A stretch of 63,877 nucleotides of DNA, counting the filler, from Kipferlia bialata (Eukaryota): assembly GCA_003568945.1 (NCBI GenBank). It is 6 parts of 5 records of this genome, joined end to end, with 100 filler letters (N's around TTAATTAATTAA, not from the genome) between each part and the next. Parts side by side here need not be neighbours in the genome. Positions count along the whole stretch, not along the records: positions 1 to 15,520 come from BDIP01000693.1; 5 more parts are not named here. The stretch is one strand, 5' to 3'. The notes beneath the pieces were generated by a model. The model saw only the letters and a program-made list of their open reading frames with translations, did not search any database and was not told where the DNA came from. The first letter of the stretch is position 1. Each line of letters opens with the position of its first letter. Shown here one piece after another: positions 56-59,400 of the stretch. Made by a program: the position numbers and the translations under genes.

Positions 56-147
56 CTCACAACCCAGGATCCCTCTCTCTCTCTCCCTCTTCTCTCTCTA
101 TGTACGTGTATATATACATAATTCTTCCTATTTGTCTCACACCCCAG

Positions 148-640
148 GATCCATGCCCTTTGTGACCACTATGCCAGTTACAGGCTCTGCATACAGGTAT
201 AGAAGACACTTCATTAAGTATATTGTCTTCGCACGCAGCTATTGGGATTTAGTATTAAAAGGTAGAGAGACTATTTACTCATTAGGAGTATTGATGTGCA
301 TCAATATAAGGGCATCCTCTACTGATCTCTATGGATCAGATCTCTGGCCTGTACCTCCTAGCCTTTAGACAGACATACACGTATATCAATATATTCGAAT
401 AATATGTATATATATATCGATACTCACCCCTAGGAGCAGATCTCTGGCCTGTACCTCCTTGTGTACAGACAGAAGCTGAGGGTGGATCCATCCACTGAGG
501 GCACAGTGCAGAGGGGACTGAGGTATGCTACCTATATATGTACCTATGTATATATATATATATGTATATATATATATAGTGATACAGGAGAGCTGAGGGT
601 GGACCCATCCACTGAGGGCACAGTGCAACGTGGCCTGAGG

Positions 641-686
<46 letters not shown>

Positions 687-1641
687 GTTATGACACTCTC
701 TTCTTATATACATATATACACGAGAGGCGATGAGGGTGGACCAATTGACATTATTTGTATGCTCTATACATATATGTACTCTACACTATGTATGTGCGCT
801 AACACACAGACTGTGGCGTGAGATTGTGCTGTCCACCCCAGCCATGAGTATTCATACTGAATTCACTATGTATATGTATATGTACTAACTCATATACTCA
901 TACACTTCGGTGTTCTAACATACAGACTTTGGCGTGAGACTGTGCTGTCCAACCCTGCCATCAGTATTCCTACTTATATACACTATATATACTATTCCTC
1001 ATATACTATATATATATTATTCATTGTATATATTGAATTCCATATATACTATATTCACCTCTTACATATAGGCTGTGGCGTGAGATTGTGCTGTCCAACC
1101 CAGCCATCAGTATTCATATATACATACAATATATGCATAATATTCCATATATACTATATATATATTATTCATTGTATATATTGTATTCCATATGTACTAT
1201 ATATTCACCCCTTATTCATAGGCTGTGGCGTGAGATTGTGCTGTCCAACCCTGCCATTAAGTTTATATACACATTCACTGTTTGTACATACCTATTACTA
1301 TTCTGTATACTATTACATATACTGACACCAAGACTATGGCGTGAGATTGTGCTGTCCAACCCTGCCATCAGTGAGCATGTGCTCAAGGCAGCCGCACAGC
1401 ATCTCACGGGGTTACTCTTAGGTGCATTTCCTAGTATGTGTACATACTTATATTGTACCAATGTGTATGTATTATAGTATCAGTGAGCATGTGCTCAAGG
1501 CAGCCGCACAACATCTCACTGGATTGCTTCTGGGTATGTATCTATATATATATTGATGTGTATGTGGTTATGTACTATAGTATCAGTCAGCATGTGCTCA
1601 AGGCAGCGGCACAGCATTTGACTGGGCTCTTACTAGGTTCC

Positions 1642-1679
<38 letters not shown>

Positions 1680-1868
1680 TACCGTACTCACTGTAGATGA
1701 ACGTGAGCCTCTCCCTCTACCCTGGGGTGACACCCTGGTGGCCATGCTCATAGCCACTCTTTCAGTCTCTCTCTCTCTCTCACTCTCTCTCTATTAGTAC
1801 CCTAACTGTAGATGAGCGTGACCCCCTACCCTTACCTTGGGGTGACACACTTGTTGCCATGCTCATAG

Positions 1869-1900
<32 letters not shown>

Positions 1901-4900
1901 CTCACTGTAGACGAGAGAGAGCCCCTACCTCTACCTTGGGGTGACACCCTAGTGGCCATGCTCATAGCCACAGAGAGCAGTGTGGCACTCAATCATGCGG
2001 TGGAGGGGGTGCAGGCTGAGGCTAAGGTATTTATACTAATGTATTTATATATAGAGTGAGAGAATGAGAGGGAGAGAGAGCAGTGTGGCACTCAAGCATG
2101 CAGTGGAAGGAGTACAGGCAGAGGCTAAGGTATATATATATATATATACTATATTATCTCAATAATTACCATTATATAGTTGAGTGTATATTTATTGTAG
2201 GCCCTAACCTCCTACCTGTGAGTCTGGAGGAGTATATATGTAACATACATATATTGCAGCATACTATGTATATGACCTATATTTATCATATCTACTCTCT
2301 CACGCTAGCTCTGGGGCCACTCCCACCTTGACAGGGGGGTGAGTGTGGAGTATATATACATATTATTAGTATATGTTGTATATATATCCAGTATGGGTAT
2401 TCTATATCTTCTGACCACCAGCTCTGGGGCCACTCCCACCTTGACTCCGGTGTCTCTGTCGAGGAGTATACTATCAATATATATATCATATACTCCATAT
2501 CATGTACTCTATCCTCTAACCTCTAGCTCTGGGGCCACTCCCACCTTGACTCCGGTGTCTCTGTCGAGGAGTACATCAACCTGGTCAGTGAGGTCTGTGC
2601 AAGGTATGTATGTATGGAGATATATATGGATATATCTCTATCTGTTAGTTTATGTATATATATATGTATATATTGGTAATGAGTGGAGGAGTACATCAAC
2701 CTGGTCAGTGAGGTCTGTGCTAGGTATGTATGGATAGTGGATATGTCTATTAGTATATAGGTATTTATGAATATAGTCACATTGGTATAGTGTCGAAATA
2801 TTGCAAGACACAATCATCACATAGCTGTGATACTATTTTGTCCCACTCCTAACCCTCTCAGGATCGATGAGCTCCGTACAGGTGCCGAGCCTGAGCTGCC
2901 AGACATGCTGGTGGATGCAGTGCTAGAAGCGTTGATAACAGAGAACAGGTATTGTTAATGAATATGTTGTCATATATATATAGTAATAGTGCTGTGTTAG
3001 CTAATGAATAGTTAATTTATACTCTACTATACTACGAACTGCCAGACATGCTGGTGGATGCAGTGCTGGAGGCATTGATCACTGAGAATANNNNNNNNAG
3101 ACATGCTGGTGGATGCAGTGCTGGAGGCATTGATCACTGAGAATAGGTATATATATACTACATATATATATGTATATATTATGCTGTACTATACATACTA
3201 AACTATACTACGAACTGCCAGACGTGCTGGTGGATGCAGTGTTGGAGGCACTATGAATACATATATATATTATAGGCATAGTGAATGTACGAATATTGAT
3301 GAGTGCTTGATATATCTATATCGATATTCTTATCTCAGAGATAAGATCCTCACTGAGCTCCTCCCCCCTGTCCTCAACACCACCCCTCTCAATGTGCTGG
3401 GGACACTGCTGTTCGACCTGGCACCCAGGCTGCCAGGTACTCTATTATATACATATGTGTAAATACATATACACACATATTCAAGTATATCACATATATA
3501 CGTCTATAGGAAGAGAACATGAATACTCTAACTCTGTCTCTCCCTAAATCACCCTGCAGGCCTCTACTGGTCCATATCAATGCTCATAGTATATATACTA
3601 TATCCACAATTCGTGTCTCTCGCGAAGTAGTATTCTCTTTGTCAATTAGCTACTCACTCTCAGGCCTCTATGACGATGTGGTCCATGTCTAAGCTCTCTC
3701 TCTTTGCATATATACCCATATCTGCCATTCTGTCCAGTATAATAAGATGTATATATGATATATATATGATGTATATATGATATATATGCATATACACCCC
3801 TAACCCCCCAGGCCTCTATGACGATGTGGTGCATGTGGTTGCATCTGCCATGGGGGCATCCCTGGATGAGTGTGTGGAGGTTAGTGCAGTTTCGTATGTA
3901 TTTAGTATGTAGTTTAGTATGTTGTATGTTTATATCATCACTCATACTATATGTGGCATCTGCCATGGGGGCATCCCTGGATGAAATTGTGGAGGTTGGT
4001 ATTTCTGTCGAAAGGAGTTGGTTCTTACATATATATACAAAAATAATAACGATGTGCCTCTATTGTCTCACCCTAGAAGCACTCTGCCATGCCTGTCACA
4101 GATGCCTCTCTATTATTTATATCCATTTATACTCTCTATTGATGTGCATATACAGTATAGTAATCTGTGTTGCACTCTTACCCCTAGAAGCACTCTGCCA
4201 TGCCTGTCACAGACGTTGTAGCACTCTTTGAACAGGTCAACACCATCCTGGAGCACTACACAAAGGTATATATATATATATGTATATATCATTACATATG
4301 TATATATAAGACATGTGAATAGTAATTCGTTGTATTATGAGAGTCAACACCATCCTGGAGCACTACACAAAGGTATATCTGTATATATATATCACTATAT
4401 ATATATAGATGTGAATATGTATATTTTTGAACAGTAATATATTGTATAATGAGTGTCAACACCATCCTGGTAAAGGTGACAATGTATCAAAATTTGTAAT
4501 TTCATGCAACGGTCTACTATATACATTCTAAGAGTCACACGATGTAGTGTACTGATGTGTATAATAGTGATTACTGGTGCACTACACAAAGGTGACATCA
4601 TTCAGTAAGCAGTGTATTGTTACGCCAGAGGTCATATCATAAACACTTAGAATGATTCGCCATTATGTCATACGTGCCCTTCTAGTGTTGCCGCTGACCC
4701 CCAGACCGCCAAGGCTCTCAGGGACCCCAGCTGTCCAGACATAGCAGCCAGTCTGGAGTCAAGGTACAGTGAATATATGGATATATATATGTATACAAAT
4801 AGAGACGGGATATGCACGTATACTATATGGTAATTGGTAACCCAGCTGTCCAGACATAGCAGCCAGTCTGGAGTCAAGGTACGTATATTCATTCGGTTTC

Positions 4901-6183
4901 TCTTGTCTCAGTTCAGTTACTCAGGTTCAATCCAGAACTATGCAGTATACAGATGTACTTGTTTGTTGTGACCATTTTGTGATGTACTCACTTGAAACCA
5001 TCTTTCCCATATATTTCCACTATACATGACCAATGCTACTCACACCAGGATCAATGCCGAGTTTGGCCGCTTTGTTCAGAGGCACCCACCTCTTCCCATA
5101 TACACATCCAGACTGGTGCAGAGGATGATGATTGCCCCATCTGTCAAGGTACTTACAAGTTACACTATGTATCCATAGAGTGTTTGTTGCTGCTTTCACT
5201 ATTGTATGTAACTCATTGTAGGACAAGCTGGGTCTTGAGTCTGCATGGCTATTCCATACAATGTCTACATGAATATTACATTATTACGTATATATATAGT
5301 ATGGGGTAAGTACTAATTGCATATATGTCTCATCGTAGGACAAGCTGGGCCTTGAGTCTACCAGGACTCTGTCAAAATGTAGTATAGTATATATGATATG
5401 AAGTGTTCTCTTTCTCTTTTCCATATTATATATATACAATATATTTACTATCTGACAATAGGACAAGCTGGGTCTTGAAACTGACCTCTTCACTGTAGCA
5501 GCTCAGAACTCTGTCATATTTAGTACATGTGATATTAAGTTTCCTTTCTCTTTTCCATATTATAGATATACTATACATATACTGTCTCACCATAGGACAA
5601 GCTGGGTCTTGAGTCTGCCAAGACCGTTCATTAATATATATATGAAGGATTATGTATATGTGTATATAATATGCAATATATATTTACTATCTCACCACAG
5701 GACAAGCTGGGTCTTGAGTCTGCCAAGGGTCCCCTAGACCACCTTGCTGGACTGCCAGTCAGAATAGCAGCTGGTATGTGTGAATACATTATGCATAAGT
5801 GTATGTATATGCACTATTGTACCGATGTGATCATATAGGACTGCCTGTCAGGATAGCAGCCGGTACATTCTTGAATGTATGGGTATATACTTATGTATGT
5901 ATGTTATATATTCATTCTATATATTCTATCTATTCTTTCTATATATGTAGGACCCTTGACCACCTTGCGTGTCTGCCGGTCAGAATAGTAGCAGTTATAT
6001 ACTCTATTATATATAAGTATATGTGTATGTCTATTTGTACTTCTCTTTATACACATACATAGTATAAGAATAGTGATATAGTGTATATGTAGTATTGACT
6101 CTAGGCCTGCCTGTCTCTGCCCGGGATGACTTCTTCCTTGCACTGTATATATGTATTGTAACTATTCATATATACTGGCATTT

Positions 6184-6229
<46 letters not shown>

Positions 6230-7468
6230 CGAGTGCGACTAATGCTAGGCCTGCCTGTCTCTGCCAGAGATGACTTCTTCCTGGCCCTTGCCTCAGGTCT
6301 CGGTTGCAGGCTGATTAATGGGGTATGATACATATGTATATATAGTGTCTATATGTATCACTAACACTTGACACTTAATCAGAATCCTCGTGTGTGGTGG
6401 ATGCAATTTAGCGCATGTCTTTTGCGTTCAATCTTTACATTGAGACTTAGCAATTTGGCTATGCTGTGTATATACTATTATGAGTCTCACCCTCTAGCAG
6501 TCCAGTGTCACTAGAGAGCGTGACCTTGTGGGTGCGTTTGTGGCAGAGGGACTCAGTGGAAGGTACTCCTATATATAAATATGTATATGTATATATATAT
6601 ATATATCCATGGATATCTAACCCTAAGGTGTGGAGGCCTGGCCGATGTCCTGGCAGCAGATGTCATCACTAGTACTATAGTGTACACATATATACTATTG
6701 TATATATATATAGAGAGAAGGCATATGTGTATATATAGAGTGATATATGGATACACACACATATATATGCAACTACTCATTCCCTCCACTCAGTATGTAG
6801 TTCACTGTAAACATCTAGTACATTCCCACTTTACACTTATCCCCTAGGTTCAGCCAGAAGTTCTACAGGCGCAAGGTAGAGTTTCTCGCAAGGTGAGAGA
6901 AATCTATTGTCAGTGTCTTCTTCTTCCCTATACTCAATTTCATGAGCTAAATAGTATTGTATGCGTATTTGTCCTAAAACCTTCTTACACCAGCATTGGT
7001 ATTCTGTAGTGACTCTGTATACGAATATGTACTTCTCTAATACCAGCATGGGTGTGTGTGAGGTGGCTGCCACCTATGGAGAGGGCAGTACCAATACACA
7101 TATATTTACATATATATATATTCAATGATGCAGTTGTATGAGGACCCCTCTGACTTGTAGTATGGGTGTGTGTGAGGTCGCTGCCACCTATGGGGAGGGC
7201 ATACCCACCACCCTAGTAGTGCCAACGTCATGCTACATGATACTGGCAGCCATACCCCCATCTGGGCCAGTAACTCTCAGCCAGTTGAAGGTAAATATTG
7301 TATGCTCATATATATATATATAAATATATAGTATCAATAGTACACTATATTGCAAATTGGAGCAGGGAGTCAGGGCGGCAGCCCAGCATACATGTTATGT
7401 ACCTTCAACTGACTTAGAGTCACTTGTCCAGCAGTGGGTATGGCTGCCAGTATCATGGAGCATGACAC

Positions 7469-7509
<41 letters not shown>

Positions 7510-8425
7510 ACTTCTCACTCCAGGCTGCCGTCTCCCTCCCCGACCCCCTGCTCCTCCCATATATATATATAATGTATGCATGTATACTATACATATACTA
7601 TATACTATATATATACAAGTATTCACACACCTGATTACCAGGCTGCCGTCTCCCTGCCTGACCCCCTGCTCCTCCCTTCCCTAGCAGCTCTGGCCTCTCA
7701 TGCCCACCCACTTCTACTAGTCCACAAGGGAGGGGAGAGAGGGGAGGCAGTTATCACACACAACAGGGCATTTATACCAGCTGCAAGGGTATGTAACCGT
7801 TTCAATAATCTCAATTGTCTACTCGATTGATGTCTCACGTGACAGGTACATGTCACCATCTCTGAGGATGTTCTCGAGGCTGATATACTGGCCGAGGGAG
7901 AGGCTGATGCCGAGGAGTCCCTGTTCCCCAGTGACCACAGGGCAAAGCTCATACTCTACAAGTAAGTACTATATATGATGTAAAAAGTGGTAAAATATCC
8001 GTACCTAGTATATTTCATGTATGTATGTGTATTATATATATACCCAGCTCAAAGACATGGGCCAGATGCCTGAGGCAGAGCTATACATACACTATAGAAA
8101 TGTATCTGTGTGTGTGGATGTATATTCAATGATACAATATATACATTTAGTACATCATATATATGTAAACTCTGACTCTAGGCACCTCAAGGACGTGGGC
8201 CAGATGCCCGAGTCAGAGCTGCTGGAGTACTGTGTCACGGCTGGGAGGGGGTCAGTCTCTATCGAGGACGCCAAGGTTTGTATCCCAAGTATCTATTCTC
8301 AGTGGATGATGACAAGTATGTATTTGTATACTTCACTCAGCTTTAACTCTCAGGTTGCCCTAGAGCGTGCCTTGAATGTGTTTGACTTTGCCAGAGAGGG
8401 TGTGGACATAGTGTGGGAGGACTAG
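148..8425 (+). CDS. Divergent cullin-family protein (5'-partial, >20 exons, introns inflated by exon echoes)
   Basis: GT-AG exons read manually, e.g. 434-522, 1333-1421, 2527-2603, 6249-6322, 7161-7290, last exon ending TAG at 8425. LPVSARDDFFLALASGLGCRLING-QSSVTRERDLV resembles cullin KDVF..FY...LAKRLL..S.S.D.E. MGVCEVAATY..TTLVVPTSCYMILAAIP..GPVTLSQLK-AAVSLPDPLLLPSLAAL..LL...VITHNRAF resembles the cullin homology domain. The C-terminus (ILYKHLKDVGQMPESELLEYC...VALERAL) resembles the winged-helix domain. Family call by eye. Confidence 0.6.
799..809 (+). promoter_or_regulatory. Fused branch point / 3' splice site CTAACACACAG (general pattern YTNAC-n3-YAG)
   Basis: Same spacing or close variants at many acceptors: ctcacccctag (423-433), ctgaccaccag, ctaacctctag, ttacccctag. 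Confidence 0.7.
810..1636 (+). repeat. Exon-echo array around exon 1333-1421
   Basis: Four upstream copies of acceptor + CTGTGGCGTGAGATTGTGCTGTCCAACCC.GCCAT (810, 925, 1072, 1222) and two downstream copies of ATCAGT.AGCATGTGCTCAAGGCAGC... + GT donor (1479, 1582). Confidence 0.95.
5222..5995 (+). repeat. Exon-echo array around exon 5701-5773
   Basis: ag|GACAAGCTGGGYCTTGA at 5222, 5339, 5462, 5597 and 5701 (intact). Copies of the 3' half lie at ~5838 and ~5951. Confidence 0.93.
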
Positions 8426-11427: not shown

Positions 11428-13947
11428 TCACTTGTCTAAGTTGCAGACCCACAGGATGGCGATGTAGTGGCATATGGTGCCTCCCATGACAAAGAAGTGC
11501 CACAGAAGGTGTCCAAAGGGTACTAGTATGAGATTAAGAGAGAGAATTGCTATATACTATAGACTATGTGCCACCCATGACAAAGAAGTGTCACAGAAGG
11601 TGGCCAAACGGTACTGTAATGAGAGAGAAATAGAGAGAAGCCATATAATATAGCCTCTGTGCCACCCATGACGAAGAAGTGCCACAGCAGATGGCCAAAG
11701 GGGACTGATATGAGATTGAAAGAGAGAACTGCTATATATTATAGACTATGTGCCACCCATGACAAAGAAGTGCCACAGCAGATGGCCAAAGGGGACTGAA
11801 ATTAGACGAAAGAAAGAGAGAAACTGAGATATATGGAGAAACTCTCTAGTAGTCTACTAGACTAGTAGAGAAGGAAGAGGGCGTGTTTGATAACGGTAGA
11901 TACACATATACTTACCAACGTGGTCAGTTGCATAGAAGATGACACCCAGAGAGTAGGAGAGACCGCCTGCAACCAGCCAGATGATCCCTGATGTTAGGGT
12001 GTAGAGAGAGATAAAGTAAAACAGACACCCTCCCTCCAGGGTAGATAACGTCTCTATTTAGAATGTAGACAGAGAAAGAGGGAGAGAAGGAGACACATAC
12101 CTGGGATTGGCATGACTGCCAATAAGGGCTTTGCCGCCAGGATGCCTATCCAGCCCATGACTAGGTAGAACCCAGTAGATGCCTGAAGGGTAATAGAACA
12201 GCACTCATAATAGTACACCCATATATGTATATCTATTCCCAAGGTATAGAAGGAATTTGAAAGTATATATGGAGAGTACCTGTGGGTGTGCGTGCGAGTC
12301 ACCGCACAGCTTGAACAGTATCCCCCCCACTGCTAGGCCCCACTCTGCTACCAGGAAGGGCCACCTGACATCAGATTGGCGAAGATATATACTATTTTAC
12401 TCATAATAGTGTATAATGACAGGGAGTTTCTCCACTCTGCCCCAAGGAAGGGCCATCTGATATCAGACACACAGTCTTCTATATACATGGCATGAAAGAG
12501 CCTATGTTCCCTTCATTGTTGTCTCATTGGATGCATACATAGAGAGAGAGAGTCTTACCTCCATGGGTCATCCAGGACCTCAAGGATGAAGGGGGTGTAG
12601 GTGCCTGACAGTGAGAGTCTTATGTATATATAGGAATGAATACACACTTTGTTATTGTGTTACAATTGTGAACAATACGACAAACTATACACATGCTATG
12701 AGAAAGAACTTGAGAGGTAGAAACAGAATAGACATAGGCATGTGTTGAGAAAACCCACCAGCGATGAGCAGGTATATCACTGTGTGGTCGACCAGTCTGA
12801 ACCAGGCCTTGAGGGCAGTGCACCTTGGGTAAAGTAGTAGAGTATCCTAGATATATACAATACACGTGGAAGATGTATATCTACAGCATTCTAGAATGTG
12901 CATGTATGCTGTCGTCAAATATATTGGTACTGGACTTTACATTCAGGAGTCTATACCTACTATGATGGTACTACTCTATATGAATATTCCTACCTTGTTG
13001 GCACTGCGTGGTAGATGGTGGAGCCGAGGTAGAGTATGAACCTGGAGAGTGAGTGGCAGCATACACGATGAGTGGATGTGTACTCACCTGCTTACTGCCA
13101 TGATTACTCCACCTACCACAGTGACACATTTCTAACAACAACAGAGTGACTTGTAAGTACTGTATATACTGTATACTATACAGCATGACTCACATGCTTG
13201 CCACAAAGACAGCTGTCCCCACCACTGTGACTGTGTCCCCGTGCTCGGCAGCATGGGAGCTGGCAGTAAGATGTATACATAGCATATATATATAGGTAAG
13301 ATAAACCAATTGAGAAAGAGGGAAACACGTATCCTCCAGGAAGAGTAGAAAGAAGTGCCCCTGCTACCATAATAGTTATACGGCATATTACTACGTACCA
13401 TATATGTATAGTGAATATACGTGCATATGATTGGTAAGCATTCAGCGCTACGCAACGTACAGCAGATTGGGTGCAAACACGAGTGCCCCAGCTGCCATGA
13501 GACCATGGCTGATGGTGTTGGCAATCTCCTCACCTAAAAGTAAGAAGACAGCTTATATAATAATCGCTGAACGGTCTATATTGAGAGAGAGCATGAACAG
13601 GGCCAATGATGGAAAGCACTAATTTGGCTTTGACTCTTGTCATATTTCAACAGTCACTCACCCGTGGTCTGAAGTCTCTCCCTCGATATGACCCTGGGGA
13701 GGAGAGCCTCCTCTCTTTCCTAGCAGTGAGAGAACACATGCACACTATAACTACTTCATATAGACTTGGGAGACGAGTACTATACTAGTTTCCATACCTT
13801 CTGCCTTGCTGCTATCCCATTGTGAGACACAGCGATGGTGTGCTTGTGGAGAGCAACTCCCTCCCCATCCCCCTCTCTCTCATTGTCGACACCCACATCA
13901 TACGTGTCAGCAGGTGATGACTGTACAGTAGTCTCAGAGTCAGGCAT
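11428..13947 (-). CDS. Hemolysin III / PAQR family integral membrane protein
   Basis: Spliced peptides EEIANTISHG, STIYHA, DHTVIYLLIAGTYTPF, FYLVMGWIGILA, WLVAGGLSYSLGVIFYA, PFGHLLWHFFVMGGTICHYIAI match the HlyIII/PAQR motifs. ATG at 13947, TGA at 11428-11430. Confidence 0.92.
11476..11797 (-). repeat. ~91-bp tandem array of acceptor + 5' part of the last HlyIII exon
   Basis: Four copies encoding PFGHLLWHFFVMGG. Confidence 0.95.
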
Positions 13948-15620: not shown

Positions 15621-15909
15621 AGACAGAGTGCACAAAGGGAGAGGGAGAGGGGGAGAGAGAGGGGGAGGGGGAGGGGGAGGGTGGCACGGTAGATAAGGCT
15701 GGTGATGCTGTGAGAGAGAGACTTGGCAGAGAGGGCGAGTGCCTCTCACACTATGTATCTAGGTATCGCTGGTCTGGTGAAATCTGCAATACTTGAGAGA
15801 TATACTGATTGGTACACGTCACTGATTCCCCCAGGCTATCCGGCGTTACCACGTTCCTCTCCGACATCGCCCCTGTGCTCAGGGAGGACACACCGCAGTT
15901 CACTAGGTA

Positions 15910-15957
<48 letters not shown>

Positions 15958-18900
15958 ATGCATGATGCAGCGCCCAATGTGCGGGACCTCACAGGTATAA
16001 TGACCGTTGAGCCTGGATATACACATCTCATACCAGCACCCTAGTCCAGACCTTTGGCTAAATATATCTTATATCTCATTTATATATATATATATATATA
16101 AAAATATATATATATCTTATCATATATATATCTTATCCTATATATACATCTCATACCAGCACCCTTGTGCAGACCTTTGGCCCCTTTGCTGCTGTGGCAC
16201 TGTCCACATACATAGCCAGGATAGAGGCACCCCAGGTACATATATGGATATAGACATACATATATATATATGTATATGTATATATATATGTATGTGTTTG
16301 GCAAACATATACACAGTAGGCAGGATAGAGACCCAGGTACATGGGATGTCTGTCGGCTATGACACTGATATGTCTTGAGATGTACATATGTCTCGCTGGG
16401 TCCTCCCTGCTATCATCCACATATTTTATATTATATATATATATATATTATATATTATTGTAAAGCTATATGTATTCACTACACTATTCTATGATGATAT
16501 GTGGTGTAGTATTATGATTTTGACCAACCACAGGGCTTTGAGGGCGAGAGAGAGAGAGACGGAGGGGTAGGTGACAGCGACCTGGGGGGATCCCTATCGG
16601 CAAGGTATACTCCCGTGTTATACACAAGTGTTCGACATTCATATATATATCGTACCGACACAGTGCAACAATGATACTTATAAGAGACGTGTATTTTCGA
16701 GAGTCTCACTTCTAGACTGTCCGGTCGCTCAGACAGAGAGAGAGAGAGACAGGGGCTGAGTCTTGAGGACTCAAGGGGCCACCCCCACCCCCACACTCTG
16801 AAGGGGCCAGATAGGAGTAGGCGCAGGGAGAGTGTCTCTCGGAGCAGACGGCGGATGAGTATAGGCTCAGGTACTGTATCCGGTAGTCTACACTGTCACC
16901 GGATTGCGATCACATCCTCTCTCTCTCTCCATATATATATGTATAAGGTATAAGTATGTATAGCCATACCATTCACTGTCAGGCAGTCTGAGTGGGAGCA
17001 GGATAGGCAGCATCAGACACCTCGACAGGGGCAGGGACATGGACGGGGACAGGTGGTGTAATTAGTATATATATATATACCAACTATATTAGTATATATA
17101 TATGTACTATAATGAGTCATGGCAGGGACATGGACGGAGACAGGTGCAGGGGTGTTTGTGATGTCGTGTGTTTGTGGGGAAGAGAGATGGTTTCATATTG
17201 TTATATTAGTCGTCCCATTAGTGACGCTCATACGATTGTTGGTCAGTATAGTGTGCTGTCCCTCTTGAGTCTGTCATACTGAGCGTTCTAATTGATATTT
17301 ATATGCACAATAATGAGTCTATTCTAATGGCAGGTGGAGAGCTGCCAAGATCCGTGAGAGAGAGAGAGAGAGAGGACGCGAGAGGGAGAGAGAGAGGCAC
17401 CCCCGGCAGATCTCTGGTGGATACACTGGATCTCTAAGAAGTGAGTGTTGCAGTGGTTGCTTTCATCCCTCCACGTGTCTTCATTGCTTCGCCCACATAT
17501 TCTCTCTCTCTTTCAGACCAACCCCAGACCCCCCTGTCACTGTCATCGGTCTCCCTCTCTCTCTCTCCCTCTCTCCCTCCTTCCTATATACTACATGTCC
17601 CCCTTACCCCAACCCCAGACCCCCCCATCTCCCCTGTCACTGTGATTGGTGTCAATGCCAAGGACCAGGACCCGTCCAGACTGGGCAGTGTGCTGTCATC
17701 GTTCAGGTACATGGCACATATCTCTCTACATAGACTCTGTATTAATGGTATATGCAATATATGACTAGAACATATCCGCATGGCAGTGTGCTGTCATCAT
17801 TCAGGTGCATGTGACTATATCACTATATGTAGTACGTTTATGCTATTGATTCTTTATACACAATTTATATATCATTGCCATTAGTGTAACACTCACCAGT
17901 ATCGAGACTGAGTAGTGTCCTGTCATTGTCCATTGTATGTATGGTATGTCTAGTGTATTGTGTGTATGTCCTGACCCCAGTGACAGTGAGTCCTTATATA
18001 TGTAGTGAATGTGTATATATGCACACTATGTATATATGTGTGATGCCTCTCCCCCCAGTGACAGTGAGTCCTCTGACATTGGGGTCGAGATGGTTGTGGT
18101 GTCCAATCACGACATGGACAGTGACACCGAGGAGAGCAGCGACATACAGGTGAGAGGGGTGTTGGGAATACTACCCACTCACAGAGGTGTGTGTGGTGGA
18201 TATACCAGTATGTATTGGATTGTATACACTGACACCATGTCAGTGTGTCGTGTCAGGATATACCATTACATATATATACATACATATATATATGTATTGT
18301 ACCCTTAATACCAGGTCAGTGTGACGTGTCAGGGTATACCACTATGTATATTGTGTTATTAATACCAGGTCAGTGTGTCGTGTCGGGGTGTGCTGCAGCG
18401 GGAGAGGGGGGGGGAGGGGGATGGGGATGGGCCTCTGTCCACTATTCTAGAGACAGAGACACAGGGAGATGGGGGTCCAACCCCTGCCGAGGATGCTATT
18501 CCAATGGAAGACCCTGGTGCAATGGAGCCCTTCAACTGCTCGTGCCTGCTGGCCCCAGGTGACATAGAGAGAGAGAGAGGGAGGGAGGGAGAGGCAGAGG
18601 CACAGAGCGGGGCAGCACAGGGGGAGGCCTCCTGTGTATTAACACCAAACCAGTACAAGGTACATGTGTGTGGATATATGTGTGGTTGTGTGTGTCCAGT
18701 GGTGACATTGGAGATCTGTATCCCCATTCCCAGGTTACCTCCCATCTCAGGGCCGCCTCCCAGTGATATCAGTTTCTTTTTGTGTATAGTGTGTATGATT
18801 ATCATTATATATATGGCCTCTAGATCATCAACTCACCCCATCCCCTGCTCTCCAACCATATATGATTATTATGTATAATTATAGTTGTATAGTATATATA

Positions 18901-20531
18901 TTTATAGTTAGTATAGTATATATAGTTATAGTTGTATAGTATATATATATGAGAATGTGTGTGTGTGTGTCATCACACCCACCCCCAGGCCCTACTCTCC
19001 AACCTGGTCTGCTATGCGGACATCCCACCCCCAGTCGGCAGAAACACAGGTGGGCTCATAGATATGTATACATATATAGATATATACATGCACATATGCC
19101 CAGCCACTCCTTAACTGTATAACTGTATTACTGTCCGTTGTCTGTTCGTTGTCCCCCACCCTCACCCCCAGCCAGCCATGTGATACCCGACATTGCAGTC
19201 CTGTGTGGCTACTCGGGTAGGGACATTGACACGTATATGATATACGTCTATGTGATGTTGATAGTGGCTACTCGGGTGGGGGTATTGGATTTAGCACATA
19301 TATATGATCTACTTCTATGTGATGTTGATTTGTTTGTGTTTGTGTGGTGGCTACTCGGGTAGGGGTATACTGCACGTTATATGTGTTGAATTTGTATCGA
19401 TGTGGTCCAAGTATACGGGTCTGCTGTTGGCCCTTCTTGTATCAGTACAAGCATCGGTATCATTACATCATCCGCTGTCATACATGGTACCTTGGCCGAT
19501 GCATGTATACCCTCACTCCCAGGTGATGACATGTATATATATATCTGTATATATACACTCACTGCCAGGTGATGACAGGTATATATATGTATATATATAT
19601 ATATATATACCCTCACTCCCAGGTGATGACATGTATATATATATNNNNNNNNNNNNNNNNNNNNNNNNNNNNNNNNNGTGATGACATGTATATATATATA
19701 TATATATATACCCTCACTCCCAGGTGATGACAGGCAGAGTGCAGAGCCAGTCTTCAACATAGCACAGGCAATGCTTCAAGGTAGGGGTGTCTATATATAT
19801 ATACAGTGATATATATATATACACAGGCACTGCTGCAGGGTATATATCCAATGTGGATATATATATATATATATATATATATATCAAGGTTTCTAACGTA
19901 TCATATGTACCCATCTCTCACTCCAGGCATCCTGGTTGATATATTTATATATATATAGCACAGGCCATCTCTCATCCCAGGCATCCTGGTTGAGTTCCAG
20001 CAGCCCCCCCACAGACTCACCCTCGCTCTGCTCAAGGTACTGTATACTATACTATAATATAGTATAATGTAATATATTATATTATAATATAGGTACTATC
20101 TGACATGTATGAATATATGTGAATATATATAGTATATGGATACCTCATACCTGTACAGAGGCAATCTGACTGGAAGTGTATAATAATCATGGACTATATT
20201 AGGCTCCCTCACTTCATATCCTCTGTGTCATGCCTCTCTGACGATACATGTATGAATGTATATATATCAATCTATATATACTTATGAATTTGTGGATGCA
20301 GTCTATATTTGTGAATAGTGATGAACACTTGTGTAATGAAAAACCCATTTAGAATGTGTTCCACACTCTCGACACATTATTGTGTTCGTGCACACTCTGT
20401 ATCTGACTCCAGGCCACACTGAGGCCCTCAGTACTGCGGAGAGAGGACAGGGAGAGAGAGAGGGGGACTGAGGCCGAGCGGCCTGCAGCAGAGACAGACG
20501 ATGCAGCCAGGTGAGAGATCCCATGCCACCA

Positions 20532-20567
<36 letters not shown>

Positions 20568-22116
20568 CTCTCTCTTCGTCTTCCTCTGATTTCCCAGGTG
20601 GCAGGGCCTGTGCCTGACCTTTGGGGCCGTGACATACACGCCCCTGACCCCTTTCAGAGCGGCACCTGCTGCGGCATCCACACTCAGTACGTATGTGTAT
20701 GTATATAACATGTGTATACATACGTTTCTATACCTATATCTAAGAGTGTTTATTAGTGTGTATCGTATGTCTTCCCAAGCACTGCCAGATGATTCGAATA
20801 CATATATACCAGTTCTTCATCTCCATACACGATTAACCCCAGCCAACTACCCCCACACTCCCCTGTCTCTCTCCCTCTCTCTGTCCCGGACCAAGAGCGG
20901 CAGGGAGAGAGAGCACCTGGAGACAGAGAGAGAGTTTGGCAGGGAGAGTGGCATGATGAGAGATCCACTGGTACGTATGATACACATATACCAATACAAT
21001 AATCTCTCATGTATAATCTCTTCTTACCCATACAATAATCTCTATTCTATATGTGTATTCTCTTCTTATGTATCAGGTCACTCCTAGGGCTGGGGAGAGA
21101 GAGAGAGAGGCCCATATAGAGAGGGAGAGAGAGACGGATACTGTCCCCCACACCCCAGCCGGTAGACTCTCCTTGCTAGAGGGGGATAGACCCCCTAGCT
21201 TCCTATCCCCACAGGTAGCCCATACATACATATATATATATATATATGTATGTATAGTGTATATATTACTGGGTCAATCAGTCAGTTTCCAGCGACTGAT
21301 AGCTGTGTTTCCTCTAATGCCACATATCCATTGCCAATGCGTACAGGGAGCCTTATGAAAGATACTTCTCTTACTGAATCTGATGAATGTCTCTGTATTG
21401 TCTCTATGTATATACATATTTACATCATGTCTGGATTGTGCCTCTACCCCCCAGGTCAGCGAGCTGACAGAGTCCAAGCTCAGACCAAGGTCACTCAACC
21501 CAGGTACCAGCATGTATATCTGTATGTGTGTCTGCATCGAATACCCCCTCCATTTAGCGTCGGACAGTGTCTTCTGGTATCACACGCATGCACTGTGTGT
21601 CTCATAGTACCTTTGTTGTCCTCCATCAAGTGCATCCCTCCCCCCCCCCTCTCTCTCTCTGTCTCTGTATCTCTCTCTCTACCCCAAGGCCGGACGGTGG
21701 GCCGGGACTGGGTGCCGGGTCGGTATCTGCAGTACCTGATGGTCAGATGGGGCAAGAGGGTGGTGGGGCATCTGGCGTACGTGACAAGTGGAAGTGTACA
21801 CGTATTGATGTAGACATATATTATGAGTAGTGAATACTATATATTTGTATTTATACAGCAGTGCTTCTCTGTATGGAGTCTGTTCAACCCCCCACCCCTA
21901 ATACAATATATATATATACATTACTCACCCCCCAGGTACATGCTCCTGTCTGGGCACACCGTCCTCATCACAGCTGCAGCGAGGTAGACAGGGAGTGGTA
22001 TTCATATATACTCAGCACATGTAGTATCAGTGTAGGATCTTGTGTATTAGTATTGTGCATAGTACACATTCTAGTACTCTGCCCCTGACTCAGCACATGA
22101 AGTGTCACTGCCAGTA

Positions 22117-22155
<39 letters not shown>

Positions 22156-22393
22156 AGTACACTGTGCTCTGCCCCTGACCCCAGGCAGGTTGGCCCCAGG
22201 ACGGCAGGGGTCATGGTCAGAATAGCAGAGGCCCTGTCCATATTCACACCCGGCGTCAACGGACAGGTACAGCGTCATCATGTGTGTCTTGTGTTAGTAG
22301 TATATCATTGAGGTAACGGTTACGAAGTGCCACACAACACCTTATCATGTCAAGAAGTATAGAACTGTCTGCCGCCTCTGTGTGATATATGTA

Positions 22394-22428
<35 letters not shown>

Positions 22429-25281
22429 CTATCTACACCCCCCACCCCAGGCCCAATCCGGTCATGTCACATGTACCCGTACTTACGGGCCATTTGTGGC
22501 CAACTCACTCGTTGCAAGGTACGTATATACCATATTGTTTGCGCATTTCTTTGCCATATTGTTATGAGACTCACTTTTGAGCAGTCTTGTATGTCTGTAT
22601 CGTGACGCCAGGATTGTCAAGACCCCAGCTGAGCCTAGACTGAGGGACATTAGGGACATGGAGAGAGAGAGAGAGTCCACAGGGCTCACTGCCATAGTGG
22701 ATGATGTCAGGTGCCAGAGTGTACAGTGACTATAACACTAGTTGGATGATGAAATACACTACACCACTTGTTCTAATGGATGCAGGGGCCAGGGATATCC
22801 ACAGACCCCTTGGGCTGAGAGGGAGAGGGGGCGAGAGAGCGACCGTACCCAGTACGTGGGGTACCTACCCCCCAACTGTGTGGAGATTGACAGCACACAC
22901 AACCTACTAGGTTAGTAGTAGGCCTAGTTGAGTACAAGAGTACAGTGCGACCTCAGTCTATTCACTCCATTCTTTTGTCTGTTCCACTATATACTGTATA
23001 TACAGGTATATTTGTTTACCCCCAGGTGTTCTCCGTCGTCCGTCTTCCTTTGGACGTATCCTTCTGTGCAAGGACGGCCACATTGACACGGACACGGCGA
23101 TCGACACAGACGACCCCATCGAGTACTTCAGGTGTGCATAGTATATATGGATGCATCTAGACATACACAATACATATATAAATATGACATATGCTCTCTC
23201 TCCATACCTGATTCTGTCTGTGTCTATAGATAGATACTGATACTCACCCCAGCAAGATTGAGGTGGACACTGAGTCTGCCAGGCTGGTGTTCATGCACAA
23301 GACTAGCAGAATGGAAGGTGGGATCAGTATCAGTATCAGTATCATAACAGAATGGAAGGTGGGATACGGATTGAGCCGTTGCATACCCAGCGAGTTATGT
23401 CAGTTGCACCTGTCTTAGTAGTACCATCCATTTGCATTGCTACAATAGTATTTGATGCACCTGCCAATTCATATTTGTATTGGTCTATACGTACATATAG
23501 GTGTATAGGTATGCCTCTGACTCCAGACAGGGACAAGGACAATGCTTGGCAGCGCAAGTACCACAAGAACTGGACACATACACTGGCAGGTGGGCTGGCT
23601 CTATAGTATCAATGTCTCTCACATAAATATATAGACATGTGAATATTCATGACACCCTAATAGTTGAACCCACACACTGGCAGGAAGGCCGACTCTATAT
23701 AGTGTATAGTATCTACTAACCGCCTGTCTGGTGAGAACCTCTCAATGTTAGGCCTCCTCGGTCCCCTCACTGACCCTAGGCATCAGCACATCAATGTCTC
23801 TCATGTATATATATATATATGGAAATTTCATGACACCCTTATAGTTAAACCCACACTGACTCTAGGCATCAACACTGAGACCATCAAGCACATGGTGGGG
23901 ACAAACACCCAGGTCATGCCCCCCTCCCCCCAGGCAGCCATGGCACACACACACGCACAGCTGCACTTGCTAGGTATACATACATGTGTGGATATGTCGG
24001 TGCACGATATCTCTCAATAGTACTGGGCTTCTGTGTGTTTCTGTCTGTGTTTATTGTGATTATTATATTACTTTAGTGAATTGTGAATTGTGAATACTCT
24101 GACTGCAGGTCAGCGGGCTCTGCGTGCATTCGTGGTTTCTCTCAGGGAAAGGGAGAGGGAGAGAGAGAGACTCGAGCTCAACACAAGGTGAGTTCCTAGC
24201 TACAGAATTGGCTGGATGGATACAAGTGAATATATGTATACATACTATTATTGGTAGTAGACCTATGTGTATAGTATTCAGTTATACTGGTGGAACTGCC
24301 ACGACTGACGTCAGGAGTGCTAGAGAGAGAGACTGGGACAGAATCAGGGAGAAGGAGAGGGAGAGGGAGAGGGAGAGAGAGAGAGAGAGAGAACCCCTCC
24401 CCTCTGACACCATTGTGGAGTATCTGGCCATTCTGGTGAGTTCTGTTGATTGATAATTATATGTATATAGTTGCTTGTATATAGATATATATATGCGCCA
24501 CACTTCTATTATATCGATTGTCATATATGTGCGGTCGTTGTCTGGCCATTCCAGTGAATGCACGTGTATAGGTCTCTGTGTATTCAACCACACACCGAAT
24601 TTCTATATGTATATACTTGTTATTCCTATATCTGTGTACTCACCCGCAGGTGGTGAATTTCTATGTATATTGTTGTTATTCATATTTCTGTGTACTCACC
24701 CTTAGGTGGGTGTCAATCTGGACCAGTGTAGAGCACAGCGGGAGAGGGAGAGAGGGAGAGAGAGAGACGCCCATGGGGACAGGGGGATGCACAGTGAGCA
24801 GATCCCGTTCCCATTCGACCACGCCGCAGGTGAGGCTCTCTCTCTCTCTCTCTTCTCTTTACTCTAGTGCATTCCCTGCATCCATTTCTATATATTCAGA
24901 GAGTGCAAGTCTCAGAATCTGACCCTTAGGCTCTAAGCAGCAGAAGAGGATCCGGCGTGTCTCTCTGTTTCCAGGTATGCAGCTTCTCTTCCTACCTCTC
25001 TTTCTCTCTGTCTCCGTCTGTCCACCTAGCCTCTTCACGATGATGTGTACGCTTATCACTCTATCAGTACCCCTATATATGCATATACCATATATACCCT
25101 GTATACCCTATATACATATTTACCCTCACCCCAGGGATCACCCCATCCCTCAGACACCCCGTACCCAAGCTCTTTGAGGATGTACACGAGGCATCCATGG
25201 AGCAGATACTGCCGTACAAGCCATTCTTCAGAAAGTAGGGGAGAGGGAAGTATTTACCGAAGACAGTCCTTTCAGGGATAG
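15621..25281 (+). CDS. Large multi-exon hypothetical protein (5'-partial; low-complexity RE/G/D-rich stretches); could be more than one gene
   Basis: About 30 GC-rich islands bounded by ...cccag/GT, e.g. TLVQTFGPFAAVALSTYIARIEAP, DPPISPVTVIGVNAKDQDPSRLGSVLSSF, GRYLQYLMVRWGKRVVGHLA, RDKDNAWQRKYHKNWTHTLA. No family recognised; the stop is at 25177 or 25281 depending on frame. Confidence 0.55.
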
Positions 25282-56423: not shown

Positions 56424-59400
56424 TCACCGGTACAGGACCTCATCACCCTCATAGTACCTAAGGACCTGGGGGTGAGTATTACAATCCATATATATATAGT
56501 ACCCATCACTGGTATGTATTCTGGGTATATACTAACCTGGTACTTCTTGTCCTGTGCCCTGGCCACTGCCTTGAGCTCCCTGACCCTGGGGTGAATATAT
56601 ATGTATATATATATATATATATGTATATAATTCTATATATAGACATTATAAGAGAATAAGAGGTGAGGGGGTGAATATATATATATAGATATAATATGTA
56701 GATATTATAAGAGATGTATGTGTGTAGACATGGCCACTGCCTTGAGCTCTCTGACCCTGGGTGAGGGTATGTATATAACTAGAATACATATGTATATATG
56801 ATATTATAGTTATGTATATATGACATTATAGTTATGTATATATGATATTATAGATAGAGATATATGTGTGTAGACATGGCCACTGCCTTGAGCTCTCTGA
56901 CCCTGGGTGAGGATATAGCACATTTGGTATTACACTAATCTATTAGTATATATACAAATATTACAATACACATATATATGAAAGAGAGGCACACTATCAT
57001 TTACCTCCCCTTCGTCCTGTCTCTCCCCCTCTCCACATCTGGGGGCAGCATGTAGTCAGGGTGGGACGGGCAGGACCTGAGGGATAAGTAGGTGTATACT
57101 AATACATATATATATATATATTTAGGGGCATCATCTAGTCAGGGTGGGAGGGACATGATCTGTGGTAAGTATATATATATATAGAGAGAGAGAGAGCATG
57201 TAGTCAGGGTGATAGGGGCATGACCTGGGGTTAGTATGTATACAAAGAGAGAGAGAGAGAGATCATCTGGGGGCAGCATGTAGTCAGGGTGGGAGGGGCA
57301 GGACCTAGGATTAGTATATATATATATATATATATATACATACACCCACCTATCCACATGCTCCAGGTCTATGCCTTCTGTGTCTGGCACAGTGCCGGGC
57401 TGGGGTGAGAGTGTATCTAGACGATATGCATTTATATGCCGACCAAAATGTGTCTGCAACAGTGCCAGAGGCTAGGATAAATAATAGTGTATAGAATACC
57501 CACATACAATATACTAAACCCTATACCTTTGGCATTGATGAGGGGTCCTTGTTCAAAAACCGTTCCGCATACACAGTATGGCACTTCTTCTCAACCCTGA
57601 GGGTGAGACTCATAGTCACAGGATACCAATGGAGTATGTGTTTCATATGCATATATTTACCTATATCTACATACCTGTCGAGTATGACACTCTGCATGGT
57701 GCACTGTAGTGGGTACTTGGGGGTACGGCCAGCTCGGGAGGCAGCAAACTAGGGAATTGGAGAGAGCAATATAGATGCTGAGGCAACAAACAAATATGTG
57801 GGACGCTGCATACAAGAAGTATATTGAGAGACTTGTTCCTCCTGCATATGACAAGAATGCATATATGAATCTATGTGAGAATTAATAAATATACCTGGGA
57901 TGCAGTGAGAGATGCCCGTGGAGACTGTGTGAAGTGGGAGGTTGAGTGGGTGGACATGGATGGGACACGGCTCTGGTTGTCTGGGGTCCTTGGCCCTAGG
58001 TACTTCTGGGTACTGCCACTCAGTAACGAGTCAGTACCAGCTGCAGGTGACACTGGGACAGCTATGGACAGTGGAGTGTGGTGCTCCCCAGCGTGTATAG
58101 GGGAGTGTGTATCCATGGCAGTACGCTCTCTCTGTCTGTATGTGTGTGCATCTGTGTGTGCATGTGGTACTGGTAGGCAGGGAATGGGTGAGGAGGAGGG
58201 GCTCTTTCTCTCCCTCTCTCTCTCTCTGCCCCTCTCTCTGCCCCTCTCTGTTGGTGACACCAACCCTCCACGCACACTCTGACTAACCATCTCTCTCTCC
58301 CTCCCCCTAGATACCTCTCTCTCCCTATCTCTCCCCCTTGATATCTCTCTCTCCCCTTGTGTTGGTGAGGGTGCGGGAGAACCCAGGATGCCGTAGGAGC
58401 CCTGCCTGACATATTAGATGGATTACGCAAACACATTACAGAAAAGAAATAATTCGGGCTCAATACTGCTCTATATATATTGTGAGAATAATATATATAG
58501 AGTCAACCACACAAATGTAAAAATGTATGTATACGAACCTACTCATCATGGGACTGGGACCGGCATCGTATGTGGCATGGTATGCCCTGACATGAGATCG
58601 ATACATATGTATGACATGAATGATATAATAGTATATCATATTTCTCGTCTGCATAGTCTCTGAAAGTACAATATACCTCTCTCGCACATTCAAAACAATG
58701 TATATAAATATGCATATACATAATATACCTCTTGCTCTGCCTCATCCTGGCAATGGCACCCATCTATATACATACACACACACTATATCTTATGCATATA
58801 TATACTATTCTATATACTATATACTACAAACTATAGATACCTCTTGCTCTGCCTCATCCTGGCGATGGCACCCTCAGTCAGCACAGAGGTCTGAGGGTAA
58901 GGGGTAGGTAGATATGTATGTATAGAGAGTGAGGGGGGGGGAGAGAGACACCCTTGAGACATATACAGAAAAGTTCTCATCCACAATAATACATAACATT
59001 TATACTTAGAGAGAGAGAGAGAAAGAGAGAGAAAGTTGATACCTCCTTTGGCGACAGACACACCCTGGAGACTTATACAGAATAGTTCTCATTCACAATT
59101 ATATTTAACTCTTACCGTCAGAGAGAGAGAGAGAGAGAGAGAGGGAGGGATAGAGAGAGATCTGTACCTCCTTTGGGGACAGACACACCCTCGAGGCTGG
59201 TGACCCACTGTGAATGGAGCGGGGAGAGGAACTGGCCCTGACAGACCTACTATGAGGTATACAGGTAGAGAGAGTAATGCAAGATGTACATATGATAACT
59301 TATGGCATTCCAGAAGCCCCAAGGACTGCTGGCTCTGACTGAAATACTTGTGTGTAAATATAGTACATTAATACATACACAATAACTATTGGAGGGTGGT

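What the first reader, a model, noticed from the sequence alone, without database searches (positions are those of the whole stretch)
1333..1636. Intronic echoes diverge almost only at synonymous sites
Seen: LTGLLL is CTC ACG GGG TTA CTC TTA in the exon, CTC ACT GGA TTG CTT CTG in echo 1479-1533 and TTG ACT GGG CTC TTA CTA in echo 1582-1636. Echo 591-639 has GAC/CAA/CGT/GGC where exon 434-522 has GAT/CAG/AGG/GGA, including a two-step Arg change. Echo 2309-2350 has GGG GTG AGT GTG for GGT GTC TCT GTC (AGT/TCT Ser swap). Dead intronic duplicates should mutate equally at all codon positions. Inference: each echo was, or still is, translated. They may be displaced former functional alleles, or an archive recycled into the live exon by recombination or gene conversion.
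Basis: partly seen in the sequence, partly recalled or inferred. Interest (0 to 1): 0.9.

Follow-up and report, generated by a model that had tools for sequence, protein, structure and literature searches.

The report
Introns hoard ends of old alleles
In a free-living protist, many introns carry short copies of the neighbouring exon's end with its splice site, differing from the working exon mostly at silent positions, so they are likely leftovers of other once-working alleles pasted in by DNA repair, which would make one genome a record of its population's diversity.

Summary
A codon-blind scan found 100 'echoes' beside 54 of 125 modelled exons. Each copies one exon end plus its splice site: acceptor plus exon start upstream, exon end plus donor downstream. 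Pooled dN/dS against the live exon is 0.12 (0.09-0.17). The correct null for a dead copy is about 0.5, not 1 (simulated; lowest 0.32 in 600 runs). AG is kept in 47 of 56 and GT in 30 of 35, while intron sequence beyond is near background. Live exon, near echo and far echo are equally far apart at silent sites (dS 0.27-0.31); only dN rises with distance. DNA contigs bridge echo junctions at single-copy-like depth; one spliced contig skips all 16 echoes in range. Named protein hits are Kipferlia bialata. Best reading (0.6): echoes are ends of other, long-diverged working haplotypes, placed by repair or unequal recombination that can pair only in exons, and dead only recently. 'Still translated' is unsupported; 'recycled archive' alone should not give low dN/dS. 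'Almost only synonymous' is overstated: 31% of differences change the amino acid. No second strain was found, so the allele source is inferred. Nine literature searches found no description.

The parts
148..8425 (+). Gene A (weak Cullin match), 32 echoes beside 12 exons; host gene of the finding
   Evidence: Model; equals P0002 except piece 6628-6681; Pfam Cullin E 5e-8, below cut-off; exons to 3436 spliced in contig X2
334..373 (+). Upstream echo of exon 434-522 start; acceptor lost, 3 amino-acid changes
434..522 (+). Live exon
   Evidence: GT..AG joints in X2 contig
591..639 (+). Downstream echo of exon 434-522 end, with GT
   Evidence: 4 of 15 codons differ, all silent
810..1257 (+). Four upstream echoes of exon 1333 start (810-849, 926-965, 1072-1111, 1222-1257), each with AG, three sharing one junction
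   Evidence: DNA contig 693-1030 bridges two junctions
1333..1421 (+). Live exon of the finding
   Evidence: spliced in X2 contig; in P0002
1479..1533 (+). Near downstream echo, exon end plus GT
   Evidence: 6 of 18 codons differ, all silent
1582..1636 (+). Far downstream echo, exon end plus GT, same junction as 1479
   Evidence: 7 of 18 codons differ, 1 amino-acid change
1705..1868 (+). Two upstream echoes of exon 1911-2026 (scored cores 1705-1757, 1814-1868)
1911..2026 (+). Live exon; downstream echo at 2075-2129
2309..2468 (+). Two upstream echoes of exon 2527-2603 (2309-2350, 2422-2468)
2527..2603 (+). Live exon; downstream echo at 2683-2723
11449..11795 (-). Array of three upstream echoes plus live exon, 91-bp units with alignable spacers; 13 of 13 scored differences at third positions, one making a stop
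15835..25234 (+). Gene model B, 9 echoes beside 6 of 32 exons
31722..33977 (-). AMMECR1 gene, 5 echoes beside 4 of 8 exons
36170..37502 (-). Gene model D, 4 echoes beside 3 of 4 exons
38409..46603 (-). Gene model C, 34 echoes beside 20 of 25 exon pieces
56428..60239 (-). Gene model F, 12 echoes beside 7 of 12 exons

Best explanation
The echoes are real tandem copies of one exon end plus its splice site and 33-145 bases of intron, skipped in the spliced transcript seen, and they likely came from other long-diverged working haplotypes rather than from the exon beside them. Shown: the structure, its strict polarity, dN/dS 0.12, kept splice dinucleotides, unalignable intron flanks, equal silent distances among live, near and far copies, and dN rising with distance. 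Inferred mechanism: when lineages whose introns no longer align meet in one cell, a broken chromosome can pair with its homologue only inside the short exons. Repair synthesis crosses one splice site and the end is rejoined without homology, leaving two versions of the same exon end in tandem. Misaligned crossover between an echo and a live exon then adds units that share the first junction. Only units that straddle one splice site survive selection, because they leave the protein intact provided the spliceosome takes the outermost sites (first donor, last acceptor). The copy left inside the intron has a long working past (branch dS 0.12-0.16) and a short dead one (branch dN 0.013 near, 0.033 far, against 0.005 live). 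It has no present function that I can show.
For: dN/dS 0.123, 0.075 for the 16 echoes beside transcript-verified exons, against a simulated dead-copy value near 0.5. Amino-acid changes are milder than random ones (BLOSUM mean 0.01 vs -0.46, P 0.007). AG kept 47 of 56, GT 30 of 35; splice scores 4.7 and 4.5 against 6.6 and 6.0 live and -2.4 and 0.3 background; identity to the live flank falls to 0.2-0.5 beyond about 8-11 bases, also for 24 echoes whose exon part is 97% or more identical. Echo-echo dS 0.288, live-near 0.310, live-far 0.271 over 46 pairs: a star, not a ladder of snapshots. Changes private to the nearest echo are silent in 23 of 30; to farther echoes in 21 of 40 (P 0.048). 53 of 58 upstream echoes begin at the exon start and 35 of 42 downstream echoes reach the exon end; none has the opposite polarity; donor echoes precede acceptor echoes in 11 of 11 mixed introns. 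13 of 24 multi-echo sides share a junction. In one array the spacer groups the live copy with echo 2 (6 of 44 differences) while exon sites group it with echo 1. Silent divergence is lowest at the junction (0.13) and highest far from it (0.51); trimming alone gives 0.25 to 0.29. PMC8516963 (passages) reports that fornicates lack Rad51A, have two Dmc1, and that metamonads lack canonical end joining.
Against: No second haplotype was seen: DNA contigs show no other letters in 100-3730 and two metagenome scans found no relative, so the donor pool is unobserved. It needs silent diversity of about 0.27-0.3 among several lineages, above the highest within-species values I recall (about 0.2), or repeated crosses between cryptic species. 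21 of 100 echoes are identical to the live exon over their scored length, which fits plain duplication or later conversion. Farther and nearest echoes have the same pooled dN/dS when all are counted (0.121 vs 0.123); the decay gradient appears only on shared codons. No incompatible site pair was found inside exon parts in 8 groups, with few informative sites. Spacers are never under 33 bases, which the model does not predict. Junctions are not enriched for simple repeats (23 of 98 vs 115 of 482). Frames outside gene A and the AMMECR1 gene rest on my own models.
Confidence: 0.6

Rival explanations
1. Archive recycling within one lineage: echoes arise by plain tandem duplication and are converted or crossed back into the live position often enough that harmful changes in them are purged.
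For: Shared junctions in 13 of 24 multi-echo sides; spacer and exon trees disagree in the 91-bp array; echo 2309 is identical for 24 bases and then differs at 5 of 6 codons; near-identity toward junctions.
Against: Reasoning, not simulated: exchange erases silent differences in both directions but harmful ones in one only, so dN/dS should stay at or above 0.5, and exchange frequent enough for selection should homogenise silent sites, which stand at dS 0.29. Spacers are mostly unalignable.
Confidence: 0.13
2. Decayed mutually exclusive exons: whole exons were duplicated, both were used for a long time, and one later lost half of itself by deletion.
For: Explains low dN/dS, kept splice sites and diverged flanks without any donor pool. 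Three echoes at 40764-41060 cover a whole 40-base piece and have AG and GT.
Against: Remnants of either polarity should be left, but 0 of 100 have the opposite polarity. No intact duplicate exon was found apart from those three, which depend on how one exon is split. Shared junctions and up to four copies a side need many parallel deletions.
Confidence: 0.07
3. Echoes are translated now, through alternative or unusual splicing that swaps an echo for the matching part of the live exon.
For: Splice scores of echoes approach live ones and equal or exceed them in 23 of 56 acceptors and 12 of 35 donors. The deposited AMMECR1 protein includes one echo as an exon. No snRNA candidates were found in this species (PMC6679479, passage), so its spliceosome may be odd.
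Against: The one spliced contig uses live exons only and skips 16 of 16 echoes in range. 91 of 100 echoes lack a GT/AG placement for a swap. 2 echoes carry stops; 14 of 91 scored sites lost AG or GT. Contigs drop rare forms, so low-level use is not excluded.
Confidence: 0.06
4. Dead snapshots with a fast-changing live exon: echoes are old copies of the same exon, and live exons take silent changes far faster than intronic DNA mutates.
For: In the 91-bp array the two farthest echoes differ by 1 of 44 bases while the live exon differs from them by 5-6.
Against: Live-far dS (0.271) is not larger than live-near (0.310), and nearest echoes carry 23 private silent changes against 7 others. Intron spacers are more diverged than exon parts, not less.
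Confidence: 0.06
5. Assembly artefact: haplotypes or strains of one locus were strung end to end.
For: Short-read scaffold with N gaps; one twin echo lies across a gap. The DNA run may be the sample behind the window, so it is not independent. The species is reported as probably diploid (PMC5874029, passage).
Against: Separately assembled contigs of depth 292-407 run through echo junctions: 373, 849, 965 and 2683 with 31 or more bases each side, four more with 30 on one side; no other letters at live exons (8 DNA pieces shown, 78 rows not shown). Up to five versions of one exon start exceed a diploid. Strict polarity and order are not what joined haplotigs give.
Confidence: 0.04

Closest known systems
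Human F7 intron 7 minisatellite spanning the exon-intron boundary (PMC1557585; abstract and outline seen)
   Same: Repeat unit straddles a donor site; downstream pseudo-donors are intact yet silent; the most upstream donor is used.
   Different: One locus with near-identical 37-bp units. Here 54 of 125 exons, both donors and acceptors, about 110-bp units with mostly unalignable spacers and protein-level constraint in the copies.
Intron gain by tandem genomic duplication of an AG/GT proto-splice site (PMC3443670, PMC2891723; passages seen)
   Same: Short tandem duplication leaves an exon-like copy inside an intron without changing the protein.
   Different: There the unit is exonic and creates a new intron. 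Here it includes an existing splice site and intron sequence and lengthens an old intron; the intronised copy there should drift freely.
Tandem duplicated, mutually exclusive exons (search listings only)
   Same: Neighbouring homologous exon copies with low dN/dS.
   Different: Those are whole exons with both splice sites and are spliced in. These are half exons with one site and are skipped.
Duplications from error-prone double-strand-break repair, SDSA and alternative end joining (PMC7407515; passages seen; one-sided invasion recalled)
   Same: Would give short tandem or partly tandem insertions near the break.
   Different: The passages seen describe local templates; here the template is inferred to be a homologue about 25% diverged at silent sites, at genome-wide frequency.
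Silent-cassette gene conversion archives (trypanosome VSG, Borrelia vls, chicken Ig pseudogenes; recalled, no call)
   Same: Unexpressed partial copies near an expressed gene that look protein-constrained.
   Different: Those store amino-acid variety for antigen or antibody genes. These are mostly silent variants and occur in ordinary genes such as AMMECR1.

Membership tests
Tandem duplicated mutually exclusive exons | Copy is a whole exon with acceptor and donor | tested here: not met
   97 of 100 echoes cover one end or an inner part only; 3 cover a 40-base piece whose exon status is unsure
Tandem duplicated mutually exclusive exons | Copy is included in mRNA in place of its twin | tested here: inconclusive
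   One spliced contig skips 16 of 16 echoes; contigs drop rare forms
Tandem duplicated mutually exclusive exons | Copies constrained at protein level | tested here: met
   dN/dS 0.123
Intron gain by tandem duplication of AG/GT | Duplicated unit is exonic and its AG/GT supplies both new splice sites | tested here: not met
   Units include 33-272 bases of intron; 9 of 100 have a compatible GT/AG
Intron gain by tandem duplication of AG/GT | Intron position is new against relatives | not testable with these tools
   No related locus found
Splice-junction-spanning minisatellite (F7 type) | Unit straddles an exon-intron boundary; outermost site used, pseudo-sites intact | tested here: met
   Polarity, kept AG/GT, joints at outermost sites
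Splice-junction-spanning minisatellite (F7 type) | Near-identical head-to-tail units | tested here: not met
   Only 18 of 86 flanks align better than 98% of foreign flanks; the 91-bp array comes closest
Silent-cassette conversion archive | Donor sequence appears at the expressed position in other clones | not testable with these tools
   One sample only
Silent-cassette conversion archive | Cassettes store amino-acid variety for surface or immune genes | tested here: not met
   69% of differences silent; hosts include AMMECR1 and a Cullin-like gene
Haplotype concatenation artefact | Junctions absent from the DNA, reduced depth, alternative letters at the live exon | tested here: not met
   Contigs of depth 292-407 cross junctions; no other letters. 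Contigs, not raw reads

The most novel reading that the evidence does not exclude
Kipferlia introns are a genome-wide fossil record of alleles: each exon edge keeps up to four ends from other lineages of a gene pool more diverse at silent sites (about 0.3) than any I recall being measured, stacked by age, and misaligned crossovers cycle these exon-edge-plus-intron modules back into the live position, so that introns turn over by module replacement and one isolate reveals its species' diversity and hidden sex.
Probability: 0.3. Interest if true: 0.93.

Novelty: new variant of a known kind. Interest (0 to 1): 0.82.

Why it matters
If right, a single assembled genome holds several past alleles per exon, giving silent diversity, constraint and evidence of outcrossing for a protist whose sex has not been shown here. 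It would expose a repair route that inflates introns (median length 128, 242, 363, 417, 552 bases for 0 to 4 echoes) in a lineage lacking Rad51A and canonical end joining. It is also a natural experiment in splice-site choice: up to four intact acceptors or three donors are passed over in short introns, which points to pairing across the exon (inference). Practically, echoes mislead annotation: a deposited protein carries one as an exon.

Tried and rejected
No whole genome was held, so the scan covers nine gene models in this window only; the genes at about 25.5-31 kb and 47-54 kb were not modelled, though self-comparison shows no GC-rich near repeats between 23.7 and 31.7 kb or 46.6 and 54.9 kb. 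No RNA holder was listed as such; X2 is a guessed RNA run of the same sample as X1. Contigs were laid on 100-3730 only; 6 of 30 bins had no DNA cover, among them echo 2309, which proves nothing. Raw reads were not available, so heterozygosity and rare splice forms are untested. Two metagenome scans found no relative (0 of 168 and 0 of 118 candidate stretches). Two look-ups of earlier findings were empty. Junctions at dinucleotide repeats: rejected. Four-gamete test inside echoes: 0 incompatible pairs in 8 groups, too few sites. Amino-acid changes lie nearer the junction in trimmed alignments (P 0.01), but this fades when echoes are extended to the splice site; not used. Five echoes I doubted were left in; without them dN/dS is 0.113. 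PMC12895298 (passages) gave no ceiling for silent diversity. Supplements of the species' genome paper were not read and may bear on novelty and ploidy.

Full report
What the window is. It is AT-rich, intron-dense eukaryotic DNA in six segments separated by N linkers. Two exon queries each returned one protein, both named Kipferlia bialata by their source, at 98% and 100% identity: an AMMECR1 protein and a 574-residue protein with a weak Cullin match. The second equals my model of the gene that holds the finding, bar one piece. One contig of run X2, a guessed RNA run, joins exons 148-196, 434-522, 1333-1421, 1911-2026, 2527-2603, 2862-2948 and 3339-3436; six GT..AG joints are listed, the jump after 1421 shows only in the piece table, and the last joint lands on an echo because the live exon lay outside the stretch laid.

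The observation. The quoted codons are correct; some amino-acid changes beside them were left out. To avoid picking cases I built nine gene models (125 exon pieces, curated by hand, some donors moved and one exon split) and searched flanking introns with a codon-blind ungapped scorer. It found 101 echoes; one twin across an N gap was dropped. They lie beside 54 of 125 exons, in 7 of 9 genes; foreign introns give 1 hit in 500. Over 1012 codons, differences fall 37/39/180 on positions 1/2/3 and dN/dS is 0.123 (0.086-0.169), 0.075 beside transcript-verified exons. Per gene it runs from 0.03 to 0.33 on small counts. The right null is not 1: a dead copy compared with a live exon that still changes at silent sites gives about 0.5, and 600 simulations through the same scorer never fell under 0.32. 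The non-synonymous share is 0.31 against 0.61 expected (P about 2e-22; echoes of one exon are not independent, but one echo per exon gives 0.094-0.187).

Anatomy. Upstream echoes copy the acceptor and exon start (53 of 58); downstream echoes copy the exon end and donor (35 of 42); the other 12 match inner parts near the same end; none has the opposite polarity. In 11 of 11 introns with both kinds, donor echoes come first. Units measure about 104-112 bases, and intron length grows by about that per echo. This polarity is what selection would leave from short duplications: only those that straddle one splice site keep the protein unchanged (inference). A 3.8-kb intronless reading frame has no such repeats.

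Real DNA. Contigs of run X1, at depth 292-407, cross echo junctions at 373, 849, 965 and 2683 with at least 31 bases on each side and four more with 30 on one side; no alternative letters are listed. X1 may be the sample behind the window and these are contigs, so this argues against an assembly join but is not independent support.

Each echo behaved as a working exon edge. AG is kept in 47 of 56 and GT in 30 of 35, and splice scores approach live values, while identity to the live flank drops to 0.2-0.5 a few bases further in; only 18 of 86 flanks align clearly better than foreign ones. On codons shared by two echoes, dS is 0.288 between echoes, 0.310 live to near and 0.271 live to far, while dN is 0.045, 0.017 and 0.037. 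Branch lengths are dS 0.147, 0.164, 0.125 and dN 0.005, 0.013, 0.033 for live, near and far. A series of snapshots of one exon would give a ladder and position-blind private changes in the nearest echo; instead 23 of its 30 private changes are silent. So three or more versions of an exon edge each spent most of their separate history under protein and splice constraint, and the echoes have been free only briefly, the far ones longer.

Not used now, as far as seen. The spliced contig skips all 16 echoes in range and always takes the first donor and last acceptor. Only 9 of 100 echoes could replace their twin by GT/AG splicing. Rare use is untested.

Mechanism. Versions that were all working yet coexisted must have lived on different chromosomes. 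No second copy shows in this sample, so I infer other lineages met through outcrossing and were later lost by homozygosis. With introns unalignable, pairing is confined to exons of 50-120 bases; repair that copies across one splice site and rejoins without homology gives exactly one exon end, one splice site and part of an intron in tandem. Break-in-exon and break-in-intron versions give the same geometry, so displaced resident and imported copy cannot be told apart. Shared junctions on 13 of 24 multi-echo sides and the spacer-exon mismatch in the 91-bp array point to later misaligned crossovers. Silent divergence rising from 0.13 at the junction to 0.51 away from it, beyond what trimming gives, fits pairing that starts where the partners are most alike, though other causes are open. 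PMC8516963 (passages) reports loss of Rad51A, two Dmc1 copies in fornicates and no canonical end joining in metamonads; that Dmc1 tolerates mismatches is recalled. All of this paragraph is inference. Its cost is a donor pool about 0.3 apart at silent sites, which I did not observe. The minimum spacer of 33-40 bases is unexplained.

Known kinds. The nearest case is the F7 minisatellite with silent pseudo-donors (PMC1557585, abstract), a single locus of near-identical units. Intron gain by tandem duplication (PMC3443670, PMC2891723, passages) and mutually exclusive exons fail defining tests. The species' genome paper has no occurrence of 'duplicat' or 'exon' in its main text (PMC5874029, passages and section 12; supplements not read). 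Nine full-text searches listed nothing that describes this pattern; I judged most hits from titles and abstract openings, and the library lacks most subscription papers.

Verdict. A real, frequent and apparently undescribed genome feature built from known parts. The selection signal is firm; the allele-pool origin is the best of six readings at 0.6 and is directly testable with a few more isolates. Interest 0.82.

Noticed in passing
window 6628-6681 +: Exon-like piece with an acceptor, open in frame with gene A in my model, absent from P0002; no echo relation to a neighbouring exon was found. Possibly an alternative or orphan exon.
   Followed up: partly
window 41168-41184 -: A 17-base GT..AG piece inside a gene C exon; the frame shifts across it. 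Either an unusually tiny intron or an assembly slip.
   Followed up: no
window 32965-33003 -: The deposited AMMECR1 protein P0001 contains this echo as an exon, repeating 12 residues; probably an annotation error, possibly real inclusion.
   Followed up: partly
window 11449-13719 -: Ten-exon membrane-protein gene with a weak haemolysin-III-related Pfam match on one exon (E 0.037, below cut-off); holds the 91-bp array.
   Followed up: partly
window 46836-50655 +: Intronless reading frame of about 1270 codons, repetitive beta-rich look with a late hydrophobic stretch; no internal near repeats.
   Followed up: no
window 37274-37303 -: Echo lacks 6 bases in frame against its live exon end, an indel that would preserve the protein frame.
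   Followed up: no
window 3036-3146 +: Two echoes identical over 47 bases on either side of an 8-N gap, probably one echo assembled twice; one was dropped from counts.
   Followed up: yes
window 724-748 and 2219-2240 +: More decayed echoes, seen by eye farther from their exons and below the scan's threshold; the second appears to carry silent variants.
   Followed up: no
window 54226-55167 and 62488-63812 -: Two gene models with GC-richer introns (0.47-0.49) have no echoes, against 0.32-0.43 in echo-bearing genes: echo density varies by gene.
   Followed up: partly
whole set of echoes: At four-fold sites transitions are 36 and transversions 74, so no transition bias.
   Followed up: no
window 15521, 31137, 46736, 52916, 61402: Five linkers of N runs around a 12-base spacer: the window joins six separate scaffolds.
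   Followed up: yes
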